Virus record (IMG/VR): IMGVR_UViG_3300021057_000011 | Location: 1-35,725 of that record | Length of the DNA: 35,725 nt | Strand: one strand, 5' to 3' | Origin: a virus | Part shown: one piece after another, positions 9,319 to 19,882 of the stretch | Layout: every line of letters starts with the position of its first letter | Numbering within the stretch: position 1 is the stretch's first letter | Notes under the pieces: generated by a model | Database searches by the model: none | What the model was told of the DNA's origin: nothing | Seen by the model: only the letters and a program-made list of their open reading frames with translations | Translations under genes and position numbers: made by a program

Positions 9319-9770
9319 TTCCTATGCCGCCCCACAAGGATTAGAAGCAATGCATCCGCGGCATCGTGGAGGCTCTTGAAGCCAGGCTCCAAATCCTCAG
9401 AGTCTGCCAGCTCATACCCGTACCCGCCGTATTCCAGTTCAAACGCGCGACCCAAATAAGTATTTGCCTCTGAAATCAGGGGCGCATCATGGTCCCCAAT
9501 ATCATAGAGCGACATCTGAAAGGCGTTACCCAAGGAATCCTCATCTGTCTGCCACATCCAAGATTCCGGCTCCTCGTACCAACGAATAGGTTCGTCTACT
9601 ATTATCTCCTCCCGAATCGGGTAGCGAGACAAATCCGCAGGACCTGCCAAGGTCTCCTCTAGGAAAGCGAAAATCGCGGGAAAAAGCGAACTCAACGCAA
9701 CTCCAGGCGGCAGCTCTATCTTTTTCAACTCCTCGAATTCCCGCTCTAGGTTTTCACGGTTGATCGTCAT
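9315..9770 (-). CDS. Acidic hypothetical protein
   Basis: Start MTINRENL; D/E-rich. Confidence 0.7.
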   Translation of the reverse strand: MTINRENLEREFEELKKIELPPGVALSSLFPAIFAFLEETLAGPADLSRYPIREEIIVDEPIRWYEEPESWMWQTDEDSLGNAFQMSLYDIGDHDAPLISEANTYLGRAFELEYGGYGYELADSEDLEPGFKSLHDAADALLLILVGRHRK

Positions 9771-10068
9771 GATCCTGTCCTTTCTTCTGCGCCAGGGTGG
9801 CTTCGACCAGGGCGAAAATGAGGGGGAACTCTGACTGATCCCGTCCATCATCATCCAGGGCAGTAATCAGCTCCCACTTCTCTTTCTCCATCGCCGCAAA
9901 ATCAACGTCTGAATACACGTCCAGGACCCACTGCCACTCGTCCTCCAGCGGAGGTGAACGACGGGCAGACAGTTTCTCGCAGCGGCTGCACGTTGCCACA
10001 CCCGTGGCGATCGGGGGCGGGGGTTTCATGTCTTGAATGTGCCCGCAGTGGGGGCATTTGGCTTTCAT
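9754..10068 (-). CDS. Zn-ribbon protein with acidic C-terminal module
   Basis: MKAKCPHCG...GVATCSRC; ATGA overlap. Confidence 0.7.
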   Translation of the reverse strand: MKAKCPHCGHIQDMKPPPPIATGVATCSRCEKLSARRSPPLEDEWQWVLDVYSDVDFAAMEKEKWELITALDDDGRDQSEFPLIFALVEATLAQKKGQDHDDQP

Positions 10069-10499
10069 GCGTCCGCCCTGCCGCCAAGATAGCCGTTCTC
10101 TTTGAGCAACCCGACCACCGTGGCGATGTTGCCGGCATCGGGATTTCCGGTCCACAGCTCGCGGCTGATCTGAAGCAGCAAATTATCCAGCCGCTCGACC
10201 TTGGCTTCCAGTTCCTCGGGGGTGTCTTCGTGCTTCAAATCGGCGAACATGTCCTCGACCGAAGCATAGGACGTCAGGCCAATGCCCTTGTCACTGTCCT
10301 CGAGAGCCTGGATCGTTTCGGCATTGGGTTCGTGGGAATGGGGGCAAAGGACTATCCAGTTCCACCCGTGAGGTTGGGGATCGACAAAAGGATATTCGTG
10401 ACAAGTGGGACACTGCCGGCGATTCACCACAGCTGTAGGGGTCGCGGGAGTAACATCGATATCAGAGACGGTATCACAATAGGGGCATTGGGCTCTCAT
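10065..10499 (-). CDS. Zn-ribbon protein carrying a DinJ/RelB-like antitoxin C-terminal segment and a coiled coil
   Basis: CPYC...CPTC then EPNAETIQALEDSDKGIGLTSYASVEDMFADL. Confidence 0.7.
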   Translation of the reverse strand: MRAQCPYCDTVSDIDVTPATPTAVVNRRQCPTCHEYPFVDPQPHGWNWIVLCPHSHEPNAETIQALEDSDKGIGLTSYASVEDMFADLKHEDTPEELEAKVERLDNLLLQISRELWTGNPDAGNIATVVGLLKENGYLGGRADA

Positions 10500-10723
10500 G
10501 ATTGCTGTTTCCTTTCGTCGACTTGCCGCAGGGCCTCTTTCAGCATCGCTTCAACTTCGTCCAGGGTGTCGCCGGCATAGAGGGACTGTGTGTAATACCC
10601 TTGTGCCGCGATTTGACTGTCTTGGTCGGCAGTAATCTGGAGCTTCCAACAGAGGAGTTCAGATTGCCCCTCGGGTTGAACGGAATACAGGGAGACGTGG
10701 GTCATAGGCTTCCTCACATGCAT
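10496..10723 (-). CDS. HicB-like (antitoxin N-terminal fold) small protein
   Basis: WKLQITADQDSQIAAQG...LYAGDTLDEVEAMLKEAL fits the beta-beta-beta-G.T.EE....KEA pattern. Confidence 0.5.
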   Translation of the reverse strand: MHVRKPMTHVSLYSVQPEGQSELLCWKLQITADQDSQIAAQGYYTQSLYAGDTLDEVEAMLKEALRQVDERKQQS

Positions 10724-11144: not shown

Positions 11145-11398
11145 TAGCGCCCCTCCTTGAGATCGGTGATCAGCATAGCCCAAAAGCAGACGGCTTCCCG
11201 CTGCTCATAGGGCATGTTCTTCGTCACCGGCTGAAAGGCCTGCATCTGCGCACGGAAGTAGGCCTCCAGCATCGTGTCGTAATTCGCTTTGCTGCTGGCG
11301 GCGCAATAAATATCCTCGCAGTGCATCAGCTTCTCGCGGGTGAGAAGGTGGGGGAATTTGCGGTGGTACTCCGCCAGGGCGTTGGGGGTCAGGCTCAT
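11144..11398 (-). CDS. Hypothetical protein
   Basis: 84 aa, coupled. Confidence 0.7.
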   Translation of the reverse strand: MSLTPNALAEYHRKFPHLLTREKLMHCEDIYCAASSKANYDTMLEAYFRAQMQAFQPVTKNMPYEQREAVCFWAMLITDLKEGR

Positions 11399-11613
11399 AT
11401 CAGCTCCCAGGAGGGATCTTCAATCCGCACGATGAACCTTGCGACTTTCTCCGCGGAGGCTTGAAACACATCCATCGGCATAGCAGGTAACTCATCCAGC
11501 CGGCGGGAGGGGGTGTACCTGCATTTCTGACAGGTCGCCACCCCGTTGAAGACGGTTACCGCAGAAGGTTCACCGCAGTGCGGACAATCCAGGTAAATAG
11601 GGGTATGTCTCAT
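11395..11613 (-). CDS. Zn-ribbon protein, paralog of 9754..10068, with possible DUF1778/TacA-like tail
   Basis: CPHCG...GVATCQKC...SRR; tail DVFQASAEKVARFIVRIEDP. Confidence 0.65.
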   Translation of the reverse strand: MRHTPIYLDCPHCGEPSAVTVFNGVATCQKCRYTPSRRLDELPAMPMDVFQASAEKVARFIVRIEDPSWELI

Positions 11614-12850: not shown

Positions 12851-13203
12851 GAGACTTTCTCCAGCTCAGCGACCTCGTGGATTTCCCGCTTGATGCTGCA
12901 GCCGACCTGCCACTCTTTGAGGCAAAGCTCCCCCACGGGCGGATCGTCCTGGATGCGGGCGAGAAAGGCCTGCCGGGAATCGGTCACGAGCAGGGCCCGG
13001 ACCAGGGTGAGCAGAACAATGGAGTAGGGGGTGGTGGGATCGTGGCGCAGGAGGATTTCCTGCTGCCGCTGAAAGGCCCGCTGGGCGGTGTGGGCACTCA
13101 TGCCGAGGCCCACCTGGACCTTTTCCACCAGGCAGAAGGTCCAGTCCTGCTGGACGAGGTAGGCCTGGAGCAGGTCGACGAGATCATGACGCAGCGTACT
13201 CAT
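12847..13203 (-). CDS. Hypothetical protein
   Basis: 118 aa, ATGA overlap. Confidence 0.7.
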   Translation of the reverse strand: MSTLRHDLVDLLQAYLVQQDWTFCLVEKVQVGLGMSAHTAQRAFQRQQEILLRHDPTTPYSIVLLTLVRALLVTDSRQAFLARIQDDPPVGELCLKEWQVGCSIKREIHEVAELEKVS

Positions 13204-13583
13204 ACCCGAAGGATTTCCGTCTCAAAACGGGCGTGCAAGTGGTCGACATAGGCCTGCGGCTCAGCCGAAGAGATGGGGCGCTTCGCAGCCAAATAGGCCC
13301 GTAAGATGGCCAGATAGTTGATGGCGTCGAGGAGGGTGTCGTCGAGGGATTCGTCCGTCACCGCCGGCGCTTTGCCGCCGATCAAATTGCTCAGGCGGGC
13401 GAACTTGTCGCATAAGCGAACCATGATGCCGGTTTCCACGGAGGTGAGGTCCAGGTGGCCGACCAAGCGGAAGTTCTTGAAGGGGTCGGAATCGGCCCCG
13501 TAATCCTGGTTCTTCTTGGTGACGATGGCGAGGGCCTCGGCGTAGGTCTTTTCTAAGTGCTGGACGAATTGGGTTCGGTTCAT
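13200..13583 (-). CDS. Nucleotide modification associated domain 1 (DUF1599/Nmad1, MazG-like) protein
   Basis: KKNQDYG...PFKNF...GIMVRLCDKFARL.NL...DESLDDTLLDAINY signature. Confidence 0.85.
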   Translation of the reverse strand: MNRTQFVQHLEKTYAEALAIVTKKNQDYGADSDPFKNFRLVGHLDLTSVETGIMVRLCDKFARLSNLIGGKAPAVTDESLDDTLLDAINYLAILRAYLAAKRPISSAEPQAYVDHLHARFETEILRV

Positions 13584-14943: not shown

Positions 14944-15203
14944 AGGGTTTGCTCCTTTTGCTGAACCTCTTCATAGATGTCGCGCGCCATCAGGATGCAG
15001 ATGGTCCGCTTGGTCGTATGGATGGAGTCTTGTCCGCCAAAATCCACTTCCAGCGCCGTCTGGTGTTCTACAAAGCGCCGGGTGAATTCTGTTCGATCCA
15101 TCTCCAGCAACGTGTCGACCAAGGCCTTGTGCAGGTCGGTTGCCGTCGGGGCTTTGAACCACAGGTGGACCAAGACCGTGTATTCAAGCTCCGTGAGTCG
15201 CAT
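14940..15203 (-). CDS. Hypothetical protein
   Basis: Start MRLTELEY with AAGGAG RBS. Confidence 0.65.
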   Translation of the reverse strand: MRLTELEYTVLVHLWFKAPTATDLHKALVDTLLEMDRTEFTRRFVEHQTALEVDFGGQDSIHTTKRTICILMARDIYEEVQQKEQTL

Positions 15204-15603
15204 CGGCGTGCTCCTTTTGCCGCTCGTGTGCCCATACCTTGCGGCGCCAGTAATTGTAGTTCTGGCGCTCCAGATCGAAGCCCACCGGATCCATCTGCCG
15301 CCACTGTGCCGCACCGGTAAAAACGGACGGCCACAGGGCCTTTTCGCGGATGTAGGCTTCAAAGGCGTCCAGATCCAAATGCGCCGGCGGCGGAATGATC
15401 TTCTCCACCGCTTCCCGGCAGTGCACACAAAACACCCCGGGACGCTCGGGATCCAGGGTAAAATCGGATTCGTCCTGAGCATCCCCTTCGCCGGTTTCTC
15501 CGTCCGGGTAGACCTCAATCTCATAGAGCCTGTGCTCGATTTCGAACTGAAAGAAATGCTCTCCGTTATCGCATTTCAGGCAGTAGTACTGGGGTTCAGG
15601 CAT
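15184..15603 (-). CDS. Acidic Zn-ribbon protein with C-terminal extension
   Basis: MPEPQYYCLKCDNGEHF...GVFCVHC; AGGAGG RBS. Confidence 0.7.
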   Translation of the reverse strand: MPEPQYYCLKCDNGEHFFQFEIEHRLYEIEVYPDGETGEGDAQDESDFTLDPERPGVFCVHCREAVEKIIPPPAHLDLDAFEAYIREKALWPSVFTGAAQWRQMDPVGFDLERQNYNYWRRKVWAHERQKEHADATHGA

Positions 15604-15805
15604 CGCTTTCCTCCTGAGCGTCAATCTCATCCGCCGGCGCATTGCAGTGGCGACACAAAACCCCACTGCAATCAATAGACTCCTCGCTCTTGGTCGTGAT
15701 GTACTCACCGAATTTATCGACAATATTAATCTGCCGCACGGTATCGTCTTCCCAAAAATCGTCACCGTTGTGACAACGGTGACAAAAATACTGTTTATCC
15801 GGCAT
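15596..15805 (-). CDS. Acidic Zn-ribbon protein
   Basis: MPDKQYFCHRCHNGDDF...GVLCRHC. Confidence 0.75.
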   Translation of the reverse strand: MPDKQYFCHRCHNGDDFWEDDTVRQINIVDKFGEYITTKSEESIDCSGVLCRHCNAPADEIDAQEESDA

Positions 15806-15974
15806 AAGCGTCCTCCGGTCGTACCACTTCCCGGATTTCCGACAGGAAAAGCTCGTCCAGGATGTCCTGTTTGCTTAGCTTGTCCAGCTTTAGCTCCGCC
15901 CGATGATTCGCTTCGTCTTGGCTCTCGGCGTCCACCGTGATCTGAAGCTCATAGCTGACGATGTACCGTTTCAT
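15795..15974 (-). CDS. Small acidic protein
   Basis: MKRYIVSYELQITVDAESQDEA; ATGA overlap. Confidence 0.65.
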   Translation of the reverse strand: MKRYIVSYELQITVDAESQDEANHRAELKLDKLSKQDILDELFLSEIREVVRPEDAYAG

Positions 15975-16180
15975 TCCTCTTCGTCTCCTTCTTCGAAAAT
16001 GTTCCGGCCGCAATTGTCACAGTAGACCTCCGTACCCTCTTCCAGGGTATCCACCATCATGCTTTCAACTTCCTCGACATAATCCTCGAAGGCATCGAGA
16101 ACCCATGTCACCCGCCGTTCTTCGGTATCGGTGCGGATAAAGCGTTGCTGTCCGGGGCAGTGGGGGCAGGTATAGCTCAT
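15971..16180 (-). CDS. Acidic Zn-ribbon protein
   Basis: YTCPHC...RF...VYCDNCG. Confidence 0.75.
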   Translation of the reverse strand: MSYTCPHCPGQQRFIRTDTEERRVTWVLDAFEDYVEEVESMMVDTLEEGTEVYCDNCGRNIFEEGDEEE

Positions 16181-18005: not shown

Positions 18006-19580
18006 TCAGGCGGGTATGAGAGCCCGCAAAAGCGCATAGACAGGGGTTCCTACCTGCCTGTGAGAGCGTGTGGAATGATCCAAGTAGCCGGGATGGTAGT
18101 TGGCGCTTTCCACAAATTCCAGGGCATAGGCCTCGGGGATATAAGCGAGGTGAATATCGACCGCTCCGGGGCTGATGATGAGGTGCTCGACGAGCTGTTC
18201 CAGCTGTCGGTTTTTTTGCTCGGTGGAGAAGTCGTCCCAGTGGGCCAGGACCCGCTGGGCACTCTCGACGGCAGCGGAGGTCGCGTAGGACTGGGTGCGC
18301 AGATGGGCAAGCTCGCCTTCGAGGCGGGGGATTTCCTGCTCGAGGGCTTTTTTCTGGGCCTCGAACTTCGCGTCCATCGCAGCGAAACGCTCCTCGCTCC
18401 ATTTGCCCGAGAGAAAGAGCTGGAAGGTTTTTTCCTGGTCTCTGAGGGTCTGAGCCAGGTCTTTCTTGGCGCCGGCGAGCAGGGTTTCCTTGGCCGTGAT
18501 GTGGGTCTCGAGCTGCTCAATCGGTTGGGTCAGGGCTTCCGGGGCCGCAAAGAAGGTGGTCAATCGCTGCCGGAAAATCGCTTCGAGCACGGTGAGCCGG
18601 ATCTGGGTGTGGCAGGCCCGGCAGCGGAATTTTTGGGTCTTGTGCTGCTTGCGGTCGTCGCAGTACATCTTCTTGCCGCAGTGGCATTTGACAAAGCCAC
18701 TGAAGGGGTAAACCCCTTTCTTGGACTTCGCCGGCGGGCGCTTGGTGTAGTCGGCCATCAATATATGATAGGTGGCCTGCCAGAGCTCCCGAGGGATGAT
18801 CGGCAGGGTGGTGTGGTAGAGCCACTCCGCTTCGGGCTTGGGGAGGCAGGTGCTGGTTTTCAGCCCGCGCTTGAGGGTCGAGTAATTCGCCTTGCGCCGC
18901 CCGATGCCGGTTTCGTCCAGCAGCAGGTAGCGGACCGAGGAATCGCTCCAAGCCCCGCCGCGCTGAGTTTTGTAGCCGCGGCGGTTCATCTCGGTCGCCA
19001 CCGTGCGGCAGCGGCGGTGCTCCAGAAACAGGGTGTGCAGTTCGAGCCGAATCGAGGCCGTGGGCGGATGGGGCACCAGGACCCCGTCCTGCCATTCGTA
19101 CCCAAACGGCGCTTTGCCGCCGAGGTGCTTGCCGAGCTGGGCCCGGACCTTGACACTGGCCACCATGCGTGAGCGGATGTTCTCCCAGTCCCACTCCGCC
19201 AGCACGGCGATGATGCCGTAGAGCATCCGGCCGTGGGGGGTGGAGGTATCGAGGTTCATGTCCAGGCAAATCAAGGCCGCATTTTTTTCCTGGCACAGGT
19301 CCGCGACATTCAACAGCACCTTGCGCCGGCGGGCGAGACGTTCGAGCTTGGAGAACATCAGGCCCTTGATGCGGCCGGCGGTGATATCGTCGACCATGCG
19401 CAGGTACTCCGGGTGCTCCTCGACGATCATGCCGCTGACCCCGTCGAGGACATAGACCGCGGCCACCTCGCGCTGGGAGCGCTCGGCATAGGCTTTGCAC
19501 GCAATCAAATGGTGCTCGAGGCTGTCGGAATCGGGATCATCTTTCGAGACCCGGGCCCACACGCCAACGGGAATACTCAT
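18006..19580 (-). CDS. Large serine recombinase (integrase-like), 524 aa
   Basis: WARVS catalytic Ser; SKLERLAR; LDTSTPHGR; GGKAPFGY; Zn ribbon CHCG...CRAC; coiled coil; GGAGG before MSIPVG. Confidence 0.92.
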   Translation of the reverse strand: MSIPVGVWARVSKDDPDSDSLEHHLIACKAYAERSQREVAAVYVLDGVSGMIVEEHPEYLRMVDDITAGRIKGLMFSKLERLARRRKVLLNVADLCQEKNAALICLDMNLDTSTPHGRMLYGIIAVLAEWDWENIRSRMVASVKVRAQLGKHLGGKAPFGYEWQDGVLVPHPPTASIRLELHTLFLEHRRCRTVATEMNRRGYKTQRGGAWSDSSVRYLLLDETGIGRRKANYSTLKRGLKTSTCLPKPEAEWLYHTTLPIIPRELWQATYHILMADYTKRPPAKSKKGVYPFSGFVKCHCGKKMYCDDRKQHKTQKFRCRACHTQIRLTVLEAIFRQRLTTFFAAPEALTQPIEQLETHITAKETLLAGAKKDLAQTLRDQEKTFQLFLSGKWSEERFAAMDAKFEAQKKALEQEIPRLEGELAHLRTQSYATSAAVESAQRVLAHWDDFSTEQKNRQLEQLVEHLIISPGAVDIHLAYIPEAYALEFVESANYHPGYLDHSTRSHRQVGTPVYALLRALIPA

Positions 19581-19882
19581 GGCTGCGCGTGCCTCCCTGC
19601 ATACGCATTGAGATCCGGTGTGAAGCTCGGCAGCCAACCATCGAAGGCCGCATAATCATCGGGCCCTTTGATCCAGTCGTGCCGGCTTTTATTCATCCCC
19701 ATCGGGTGCCTTCCGGGTCGGCCCTTCAATTCCCAGAATGCTTGCCAAGCATCCCCGATGTACAGGATGAACCCCACCATCTGACCCCCGGGCCAGCGCT
19801 CCTGGTCGAGCGTCAGCATGGCGTCGGGTTCCAGCCCATGCAGTTCGCAATACCGAAGGTAACGCGGGTTCCAGCTGCTCAT
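19577..19882 (-). CDS. Hypothetical phage protein
   Basis: 101 aa, GGAGG RBS, ATGA overlaps. Confidence 0.75.
   Translation of the reverse strand: MSSWNPRYLRYCELHGLEPDAMLTLDQERWPGGQMVGFILYIGDAWQAFWELKGRPGRHPMGMNKSRHDWIKGPDDYAAFDGWLPSFTPDLNAYAGRHAQP

What the first reader, a model, noticed from the sequence alone, without database searches (positions are those of the whole stretch)
10233..10331. DinJ-like toxin-binding segment embedded in a phage Zn-ribbon/coiled-coil protein
EPNAETIQALEDSDKGIGLTSYASVEDMFADLK aligns without gaps to the E. coli DinJ C-terminus as I recall it (EPNQLTIQSIKNSEAGIDVHKAKDADDLFDKLG), the YafQ-binding part. A Zn-ribbon replaces the N-terminal RHH autoregulation domain and no yafQ/relE is adjacent, so this looks like a trans-acting inhibitor of a host RelE/YafQ-family toxin.
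Basis: partly seen in the sequence, partly recalled or inferred. Interest (0 to 1): 0.72.

Follow-up and report, generated by a model that had tools for sequence, protein, structure and literature searches.

The report
Phage orphan DinJ-type antitoxin module
An uncultured 101-kb phage encodes a small acidic protein that carries a true copy of the peptide which the bacterial antitoxin DinJ uses to grip the toxin YafQ, joined to a zinc-ribbon head instead of a DNA-binding domain and with no toxin gene in the phage record, so it is most likely an antidote against a toxin made by the host or a rival element; binding has not been tested.

Summary
They align without gaps to E. coli DinJ 53-85. An exhaustive search of 1.84 billion proteins gave 12 hits (E 5.6e-8 to 1e-3), all on residues about 50-91. 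Most lie at the C-terminal end of small proteins, several of them Pfam RelB. A profile of the module finds only DinJ among solved structures. In 37 module-bearing genes fetched from genomes, viral contigs and metagenomes, 29 sit directly upstream of a YafQ-family gene or its remnant.

The phage protein lacks the ribbon-helix-helix head. It has a CxxC...CxxC head shared with two neighbouring paralogs, and a helical tail. Both gene junctions are ATGA overlaps inside a long operon. The 101-kb record (about 80% complete) has no YafQ/RelE/ParE/YoeB/HigB/gp49 toxin.

My best reading (0.5) is a trans-acting neutraliser of a YafQ-family toxin encoded elsewhere. Orphan copies also arise by toxin decay in bacteria, so a relic remains possible.

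This scan earlier noted tail-only DinJ mini-genes in two other phages. I class this as a new variant of a known kind, the phage orphan antitoxin.

The parts
10065..10499 (-). Whole ORF, 144 aa plus stop: acidic protein (pI 4.5) made of a Zn-ribbon-like head, a DinJ-type module and a helical tail.
   Evidence: ORF list. The same 144-aa protein is called in the public protein collection (P0001). AAGGA lies about 9-13 nt before the ATG. pI 4.48.
10401..10487 (-). CxxC...CxxC head (C5, C8, C30, C33), a putative zinc ribbon.
   Evidence: Motif scan. The four Cys are kept in the paralogs 9754..10068 and 11395..11613. Pfam Zn_ribbon hits are sub-threshold. AF2 pLDDT is only 50-60 here.
10227..10346 (-). 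DinJ/RelB-type YafQ-binding module, residues 52-91 (from the C-P-H-S-H-E-P-N motif to A-D-L-K-H-E). It includes the flagged segment 10233..10331 (residues 57-89).
   Evidence: AF2 pLDDT 82-95, helix 60-70, loop, helix 81-89. The only Foldseek PDB hits are DinJ chains, and they are weak (E 3.5-7). Net charge -7.
10068..10226 (-). C-terminal tail, residues 92-144: predicted helices 94-116 and 125-134, with no relatives.
   Evidence: AF2. The VIA-align wide search gives only generic helical hairpins, Z < 5. No homolog in the exhaustive search.
9754..10068 (-). Downstream gene, 104 aa, whose start overlaps the target's stop (ATGA). It is a paralog with the same Zn-ribbon head but no recognisable DinJ module.
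   Evidence: BLASTP to the target: E 1e-5, 27% identity over 107 columns. The junction reads CATGAAAG on the minus strand. Not hit by the module profile. No antitoxin family in Pfam or PDB sequences.
10496..10723 (-). Upstream gene, 75 aa (69 aa as called elsewhere), whose stop overlaps the target's ATG (ATGA). Function unknown.
   Evidence: It is an orphan. No HicB or other family hit.
11395..11613 (-). Third Zn-ribbon paralog, 72 aa.
   Evidence: BLASTP to 9754..10068: E 5e-7. Weak zinc-ribbon hits.

Best explanation
The ORF encodes a phage-made, trans-acting antitoxin. Residues about 52-91 are a bona fide DinJ-type toxin-neutralising peptide (helix, GIGLT loop, helix ending D-M-F-x-x-L). 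This peptide wraps a YafQ-family ribosome-dependent mRNA endonuclease and blocks it, as DinJ does with YafQ. The phage record has no such toxin, so the target would be a YafQ-type toxin of the host, or of a resident prophage or plasmid, that is freed during infection. The phage protein would keep translation running. The zinc-ribbon head and helical tail replace the ribbon-helix-helix dimer and probably give fold stability or oligomerisation rather than operator binding, because the gene sits inside a translationally coupled operon without its own promoter. Shown: the homology of the module, its normal partnership with YafQ toxins, the missing RHH head, and the missing toxin. Inferred: binding, the identity of the target, and the benefit to the phage.
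For: 1) The module homology is significant and specific.
2) A profile built without the target scores it 57.3 bits. That is the top of the range of out-of-sample genuine antitoxins that have a YafQ neighbour (32.5-46.5 bits); the only higher out-of-sample score, 57.5, is the orphan mini-ORF of L020. The module is therefore intact, not decayed.
3) 29 of 37 module-bearing genes lie directly upstream of a YafQ-family ORF or its remnant. All six toxins tested are Pfam PF15738, E 1e-27 or better.
4) The module is portable. It occurs on RelB-type RHH, CopG-like RHH and unrelated heads, in tandem copies (P0003, P0006), and alone as a 36-aa ORF in a viral contig (L020) and a 47-aa protein (P0011).
5) The last residues of DinJ (77-86), whose removal abolishes the YafQ complex (PMC12301738), correspond to residues 81-90 of the target, where the acidic pair and the hydrophobic L/M-F-x-x-L positions are conserved.
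6) The phage record has no YafQ, ParE/RelE, YoeB, HigB-like, gp49 or RelE_StbE gene.
7) Both gene junctions are ATGA overlaps and there is no promoter-like site nearby, unlike a self-regulated TA operon.
8) The module is acidic, net charge -7.
9) Precedent: phages use orphan antitoxins as counter-defence (PMC11825919). RelE-superfamily toxins act in abortive infection (PMC11980606).
Against: No binding test of any kind was possible. The whole protein has no homolog among about 15 billion proteins, so selection on the fusion cannot be measured. The host is unknown; the closest portal is only 32% identical to Streptomyces BRock-like phages. The record is about 80% complete, and the same gene is listed on a 111.5-kb contig, so at least 10 kb are unseen. 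Type II antitoxins are usually specific for their own toxin (PMC12301738). Orphan copies also arise in bacteria by toxin decay (L036 frameshifted toxin, L041 remnant, L038 none), so an orphan need not be a weapon. I found no paper showing DinJ-YafQ itself to be an anti-phage system. Here the module is internal, followed by 55 residues; three other proteins have shorter extensions of about 10-35 residues after it, and two of these (L027, L030) have YafQ partners.
Confidence: 0.5

Rival explanations
1. It is a relic or an exapted piece. The module was captured by recombination from a TA locus, the toxin was lost, and the segment now has no toxin-related role. It may be neutral, or reused as an acidic helical linker or binding peptide for another partner, for example one of the Zn-ribbon paralogs.
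For: Orphan modules with decaying or missing toxins occur in bacterial contigs (L036, L041, L038/L039, L008). The target and its downstream neighbour are paralogs along their whole length, and the neighbour has a non-module sequence in the same place, so the scaffold works without the module. The protein is a singleton.
Against: The module shows no decay. All invariant family positions are kept (P58, N59, T62, G72, G74; also E61, A65, I73, L75, T76 and the M-F-x-x-L end). Its leave-one-out profile score equals the best genuine antitoxins. The ORF is intact and tightly coupled on both sides. No toxin remnant lies downstream.
Confidence: 0.22
2. It is an ordinary phage-borne TA pair whose toxin lies in the unsampled part of the genome, or far from the antitoxin (a split pair).
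For: CheckV completeness is about 80% and the record is linear. The protein database lists the gene on a 111,536-bp contig against the 101,449 bp held here. Complete DinJ-like/YafQ pairs are common on viral contigs: 20 of the 22 module genes found there.
Against: In every pair seen, the toxin gene directly follows the antitoxin (frame-to-frame offset -72 to +4 nt). Here the downstream gene overlaps by ATGA and is a Zn-ribbon paralog. There is no toxin in 101 kb by six Pfam/NCBIfam models, a custom YafQ profile and tblastn. The gene has no own promoter or operator layout.
Confidence: 0.1
3. It is an inter-element competition or anti-addiction factor. The protein neutralises the YafQ toxin of a resident plasmid or prophage TA module, so that this temperate phage (it has a serine recombinase) can displace or coexist with it, rather than countering abortive infection.
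For: The molecular evidence is the same as for the best explanation. A serine-recombinase integrase at 18006..19637 suggests a temperate life style. Most module/YafQ pairs found on viral contigs belong to prophage-like elements. The anti-addiction idea is discussed in PMC11825919.
Against: Sequence cannot distinguish this from counter-defence, and there is no evidence on timing of expression.
Confidence: 0.13

Closest known systems
E. coli DinJ of the DinJ-YafQ type II toxin-antitoxin pair (PDB 4Q2U, 4ML0; V. cholerae 9LEW; Pfam RelB PF04221)
   Same: Residues 52-91 are homologous to DinJ 48-86, the YafQ-suppressing domain. The P-N-x-x-T start, the G-I-x loop and the D-(L/M)-F-x-x-L end are shared. 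The predicted structure is helix-loop-helix.
   Different: There is no ribbon-helix-helix DNA-binding head, no adjacent yafQ and no own promoter. The head is CxxC...CxxC, a 55-residue helical tail follows the module, and the gene is encoded by a phage.
Modular DinJ-like antitoxins with non-RHH heads next to YafQ toxins (e.g. Planctomycetales GHV23594.1 = P0007/L003; L006; L040)
   Same: They share the module subtype with a Cys/His motif just before P-N (C-P-x-x-H-x-P-N), and the head is not a RelB RHH. Module identity is 50-63%.
   Different: Those genes are followed by an intact YafQ gene, and their heads are unrelated to the phage Zn ribbon.
Phage orphan antitoxin-like counter-defence proteins: T-even NADAR/DarG-like enzymes against DarTG1 (PMC11825919); T4 Dmd against RnlA/LsoA (cited there)
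   Same: These are phage genes without a cognate toxin that act as antitoxin against a host TA defence. In the NADAR case the gene is homologous to the bacterial antitoxin.
   Different: NADAR proteins are enzymes that reverse the toxin's product (type IV logic), and Dmd has no homology to RnlB. The present protein would act by type II-style sequestration, using a homologous binding peptide on a foreign scaffold. Its function has not been shown.
Predicted orphan type II antitoxin genes in cyanophage S-CREM1 (YefM, TacA, MazE; PMC9964418)
   Same: They are type II antitoxin homologs in a phage without partner toxins, proposed to neutralise host toxins.
   Different: Those are whole antitoxin genes found by annotation. 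Here only the toxin-binding peptide is present, fused to a different head, and the family is DinJ/YafQ.
Tail-only DinJ mini-genes in phages
   Same: The same module occurs without an RHH head and without a toxin, in viral DNA.
   Different: Those consist of the module alone. The present protein embeds it between a Zn-ribbon head and a helical tail, and it has paralogs that lack the module.

Membership tests
RelB/DinJ type II antitoxin (Pfam PF04221) | C-terminal toxin-neutralising domain homologous to DinJ about 48-86 | tested here: met
   The module profile hits only DinJ in the PDB (E 2.6e-5). phmmer hits include Pfam RelB proteins.
RelB/DinJ type II antitoxin (Pfam PF04221) | N-terminal ribbon-helix-helix dimerisation and DNA-binding domain | tested here: not met
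   There is no PF04221 hit on the protein or in the genome. The N-terminus is CxxC...CxxC.
RelB/DinJ type II antitoxin (Pfam PF04221) | Cognate YafQ/RelE-family toxin gene immediately downstream in the same operon | tested here: not met
   The downstream gene is a Zn-ribbon paralog. No RelE-superfamily toxin is found in 101 kb. Caveat: the record is about 80% complete.
RelB/DinJ type II antitoxin (Pfam PF04221) | Own promoter with operator, giving autoregulation | tested here: inconclusive
   No promoter-like site lies near the gene, and both junctions are ATGA overlaps. A consensus scan cannot exclude other promoter types.
RelB/DinJ type II antitoxin (Pfam PF04221) | Physically binds and neutralises the toxin | not testable with these tools
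This needs a bench test.
Phage-encoded orphan antitoxin / anti-TA counter-defence | Encoded by a phage | tested here: met
   It is an IMG/VR virus record. It has a portal, family A DNA polymerase, DnaB-like helicase and DNA helicase by PHROGs.
Phage-encoded orphan antitoxin / anti-TA counter-defence | Homologous to, or mimics, the neutralising part of a bacterial antitoxin, with no cognate toxin in the phage | tested here: met
   The evidence is as in the rows above. The caveat of an incomplete genome applies.
Phage-encoded orphan antitoxin / anti-TA counter-defence | Host carries the targeted toxin, and the phage gene restores plating | not testable with these tools
Zinc ribbon | Two CxxC knuckles that bind one zinc ion | tested here: inconclusive
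   The pattern CPYC-21-CPTC is present and conserved in two paralogs. Pfam hits have E 0.06-0.18, below the cut-offs. The AF2 head has pLDDT 50-60.

The most novel reading that the evidence does not exclude
The phage uses a duplicated Zn-ribbon scaffold as a display platform for captured toxin-neutralising peptides. The DinJ-type module is one such cargo, taken from a host TA locus. The Cys/His motif just before it (C-P-H-S-H-E-P-N) helps to clamp the His-rich, metal-binding active site of YafQ-family RNases. Together these would give a broad-range inhibitor of YafQ-type abortive-infection toxins, and the paralogs would carry other cargos that are not yet recognisable.
Probability: 0.12. Interest if true: 0.8.

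Novelty: new variant of a known kind. Interest (0 to 1): 0.55.

Why it matters
Type II antitoxins bind their toxins through short, fast-evolving peptides that are disordered until bound. Orphan copies in phages are therefore hard to recognise, as the authors of the DarG/NADAR study note (PMC11825919). Experimentally shown anti-TA factors are either non-homologous (Dmd, TifA, AdfA) or enzymatic (NADAR). This locus is a statistically secure case of a phage carrying only the toxin-gripping peptide of a type II antitoxin on a foreign scaffold.

If it neutralises YafQ-family RNases, three things follow. YafQ-type modules would be relevant as anti-phage or inter-element weapons. Capture of a binding peptide would be a route to counter-defence. 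And a 40-residue module would become available to test how specific or promiscuous DinJ-YafQ recognition is. Bench tests on laboratory strains are straightforward.

Tried and rejected
- Direct family scans of the ORF (Pfam, NCBIfam, PADLOC) gave no RelB/DinJ hit. PHROGs gave only phrog_2737 at E 0.029 on residues 58-89. phmmer of the single sequence against PDB sequences also missed DinJ. Only the exhaustive search and the module profile showed the relationship.
- The word-index homolog searches found only the protein itself.
I could therefore see neither the contexts of the phmmer hits, nor the 111.5-kb contig, nor any expression data.
- The search for related loci failed with the broad alignment A1. 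With the single protein in metagenome contigs it found nothing. The portal gave no close viral relatives.
- tblastn against 50,697 GenBank phage records gave one weak hit (E 0.2).
- The idea that the upstream 75-aa gene is HicB-like was not borne out: no Pfam HicB hit, no PDB-sequence hit, and ESM Atlas neighbours unrelated.
- The idea that the two paralogs carry other antitoxin-like tails found no support in Pfam, PDB sequences or the module profile.
- Structure searches of the AF2 model gave only weak matches. With Foldseek the five hits are all DinJ chains, but E is 3.5-7. VIA-align matched the tail only to generic helical hairpins, Z < 5.
- The ESM Atlas gave nothing above chance for the target.
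- Rfam found nothing in the window.
- The promoter and terminator scan was at chance level.
- GC3 of head, module and tail gave no clear sign of recent transfer.

Full report
**What is there.** The flagged 99 bases (10233..10331, minus strand) encode residues 57-89 of a 144-aa ORF, 10065..10499 (-). The same 144-aa product is called in the public protein collection (P0001). The ORF has an AAGGA about 9-13 nt before its ATG. The ATG overlaps the stop of the upstream gene (10496..10723) in an ATGA. Its own stop overlaps the ATG of the downstream gene (9754..10068) in another ATGA. The window is the first 35.7 kb of a 101,449-bp IMG/VR virus record, about 80% complete. The record is a phage: it has a portal, a family A DNA polymerase, a DnaB-like helicase and a DNA helicase, plus a serine recombinase at 18006..19637. 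The gene lies in a long minus-strand run of small ORFs with no recognisable families.

**Is the DinJ resemblance real?** Yes.
BLASTP gives one ungapped alignment, target 56-88 to DinJ 52-84, 12/33 identical, pairwise E 9e-6.
- Standard family scans miss it. PHROGs gives only E 0.029.
- An exhaustive phmmer search of 1.84 billion representative proteins returned 12 proteins with library-wide E from 5.6e-8 to 9.5e-4. Every match is confined to target residues about 50-94. Most lie at the C-terminal end of proteins of 47-157 aa; in P0014 the copy is N-terminal.
- P0004, P0006 and P0003 pass Pfam RelB. In P0003, Pfam RelB positions 41-82 map onto its first copy of this motif. P0010 has a ParD-like ribbon-helix-helix head.
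- A 38-column profile of the module, searched against all PDB sequences, finds DinJ and nothing else of note: 4q2u E 2.6e-5, 4ml0 E 4.2e-4, DinJ residues 48-84, next hit E 0.42.
- The AF2 model has pLDDT 82-95 over residues 51-100. It predicts helix 60-70, a loop carrying G-I-G-L-T, and helix 81-89. The only five Foldseek PDB hits are DinJ chains of DinJ-YafQ complexes, but they are weak (E 3.5-7).

**What does the module normally do?** I fetched module-bearing genes by degenerate DNA patterns and by a sub-family alignment, from species genomes, viral contigs and metagenomes.
- The first set gave 29 module ORFs. In 26 of them a YafQ-profile ORF follows directly on the same strand, with frame-to-frame offset -72 to +4 nt. 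Thirteen of the viral ones are one lineage, so independent cases are fewer.
- Six of the neighbouring toxins were scanned and all are Pfam YafQ_toxin, E 1e-27 or better.
- In the second set, L040 has an intact YafQ. L036 has a frameshifted one. L041 has a short remnant, judged by eye. L038/L039 and L042 have none within the available flank, and two loci are cut by the contig end.
- Overall, 29 of 37 module genes lie next to YafQ or its remnant.
- The heads vary: RelB-type RHH, CopG-like RHH, or unrelated sequences. The module can be duplicated in tandem (P0003, P0006). It can also stand alone, as in P0011 (47 aa) and a 36-aa ORF in viral contig L020.
- The module is thus a portable YafQ-binding peptide.
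- Published work shows that deleting DinJ 77-86 abolishes the DinJ-YafQ complex (PMC12301738). The corresponding stretch of the phage protein (residues 81-90) keeps the acidic pair and the hydrophobic positions of DinJ's L-F-x-x-L as M-F-x-x-L.

**Is the phage copy intact?** A profile built without the target scores it 57.3 bits. Out-of-sample antitoxins with YafQ partners score 32.5-46.5 bits, and the only higher out-of-sample score, 57.5, belongs to the orphan mini-ORF of L020. One caveat applies: the profile members were fetched with a DNA pattern derived from the motif. All invariant family positions are present. The module is strongly acidic, net charge -7.

**What differs from an antitoxin gene?**
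- There is no RHH domain. Instead there is a CPYC-21-CPTC head.
- The head, and indeed the whole protein, is paralogous to the downstream gene (E 1e-5 over 107 columns). That gene in turn is paralogous to 11395..11613 (E 5e-7). Neither paralog has the module.
- A 55-residue helical tail follows the module. It has no relatives and only generic structural matches.
- No toxin is present. Six Pfam/NCBIfam RelE-superfamily models, a custom YafQ profile run with filters off on all six frames, and tblastn with seven YafQ toxins all found nothing in 101 kb.
- No promoter-like site lies near the gene.

**Interpretation.** The simplest reading is a trans-acting neutraliser of a YafQ-family toxin encoded outside the phage, either as counter-defence or as anti-addiction. 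Phage orphan antitoxins are established for DarTG (PMC11825919; review PMC13728456). Orphan type II antitoxin genes have been predicted in a cyanophage (PMC9964418). RelE-superfamily toxins take part in abortive infection (PMC11980606).

Several points count against certainty:
- the protein is a singleton;
- the host is unknown;
- at least 10 kb of the genome are unseen;
- type II antitoxins are usually specific for their own toxin;
- orphan modules also arise in bacteria by toxin decay.

I put 0.5 on the neutraliser reading. Within the same mechanism, a further 0.13 goes to inter-element competition rather than counter-defence. I put 0.22 on relic or exaptation and 0.1 on an unsampled cognate toxin.

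**Comparison and novelty.** It works like DinJ's C-terminal domain but is not a member of the RelB/DinJ antitoxin family in the full sense: the RHH head and the adjacent toxin were tested and not met. It is best filed as a new variant of the phage orphan-antitoxin kind, a type II binding peptide grafted onto a zinc-ribbon scaffold. This scan's earlier notes describe tail-only DinJ mini-genes in two other phages (e1-5973229, e1-6066104). My own data add P0011, L020 and L023. A wider phenomenon therefore seems likely but remains untested experimentally. The neighbouring 'arsenal' idea (e1-5625199) is only partly borne out: the three Zn-ribbon genes are paralogs, but I found no antitoxin-like signal in the other two tails, nor HicB likeness in the upstream gene.

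Noticed in passing
window 10332-10346 (-), residues 52-56; also P0004, P0007-P0013, L036-L043: In the module's closest relatives a Cys and a His sit just before the P-N: C-P-x-(S/D)-H-x-P-N, or C-x-x-C...H-x-P-N in P0010 and P0011. This holds whatever the N-terminal head is. RelB-type members have L-P-F-(D/E) there instead. YafQ-family toxins have His-rich active sites, reported with bound Zn or Cu in H. pylori homologs (PMC7584586), so the motif might contact the active site. This is untested.
   Followed up: partly
window 9754-10068 (-), 10065-10499 (-), 11395-11613 (-): These are three paralogous small genes with a conserved CP(H/Y)C...CxxC head and divergent acidic tails (pairwise E 1e-5 and 5e-7). 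Only the middle one carries the DinJ-type module.
   Followed up: partly
window 15184-16180 (-): This is a second cluster of small acidic ORFs, each with two widely spaced CxxC pairs: 15971..16180, 15596..15805, and the frame 15184..15765. It looks like another set of zinc-binding mini-proteins. No search was done.
   Followed up: no
P0003 and P0006: These are bacterial or metagenomic RelB-family antitoxins that carry the YafQ-binding module twice in tandem.
   Followed up: no
L020:92-202 (+), viral contig IMGVR_UViG_3300008517_000189; L023:1660-2016 (+), IMGVR_UViG_3300035698_016708: These are two more module genes on viral contigs without a YafQ gene downstream. One is a 36-aa ORF that is the module alone, ending K-L-G-I like E. 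coli DinJ. The other is a 118-aa protein with a basic head, lying upstream of an oppositely oriented 441-aa ORF of unidentified function.
   Followed up: partly
L036:721-997 (+) and L041:401-577 (+): The YafQ genes next to P0008-like antitoxins are decaying: one is split into two frames and one is a 58-aa N-terminal remnant. The antitoxin modules beside them stay intact.
   Followed up: partly
whole record G000 versus the protein database entry: The protein collection lists the gene on a contig of 111,536 bp, while the virus record held here is 101,449 bp. About 10 kb, possibly host flank or more phage, could not be read.
   Followed up: no
window 13200-13583 (-): A 127-aa protein has a sub-threshold match to Pfam COOH-NH2_lig (phiEco32-like ligase type 2): E 1.6e-4, 21.4 bits against a cut-off of 25.
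   Followed up: no
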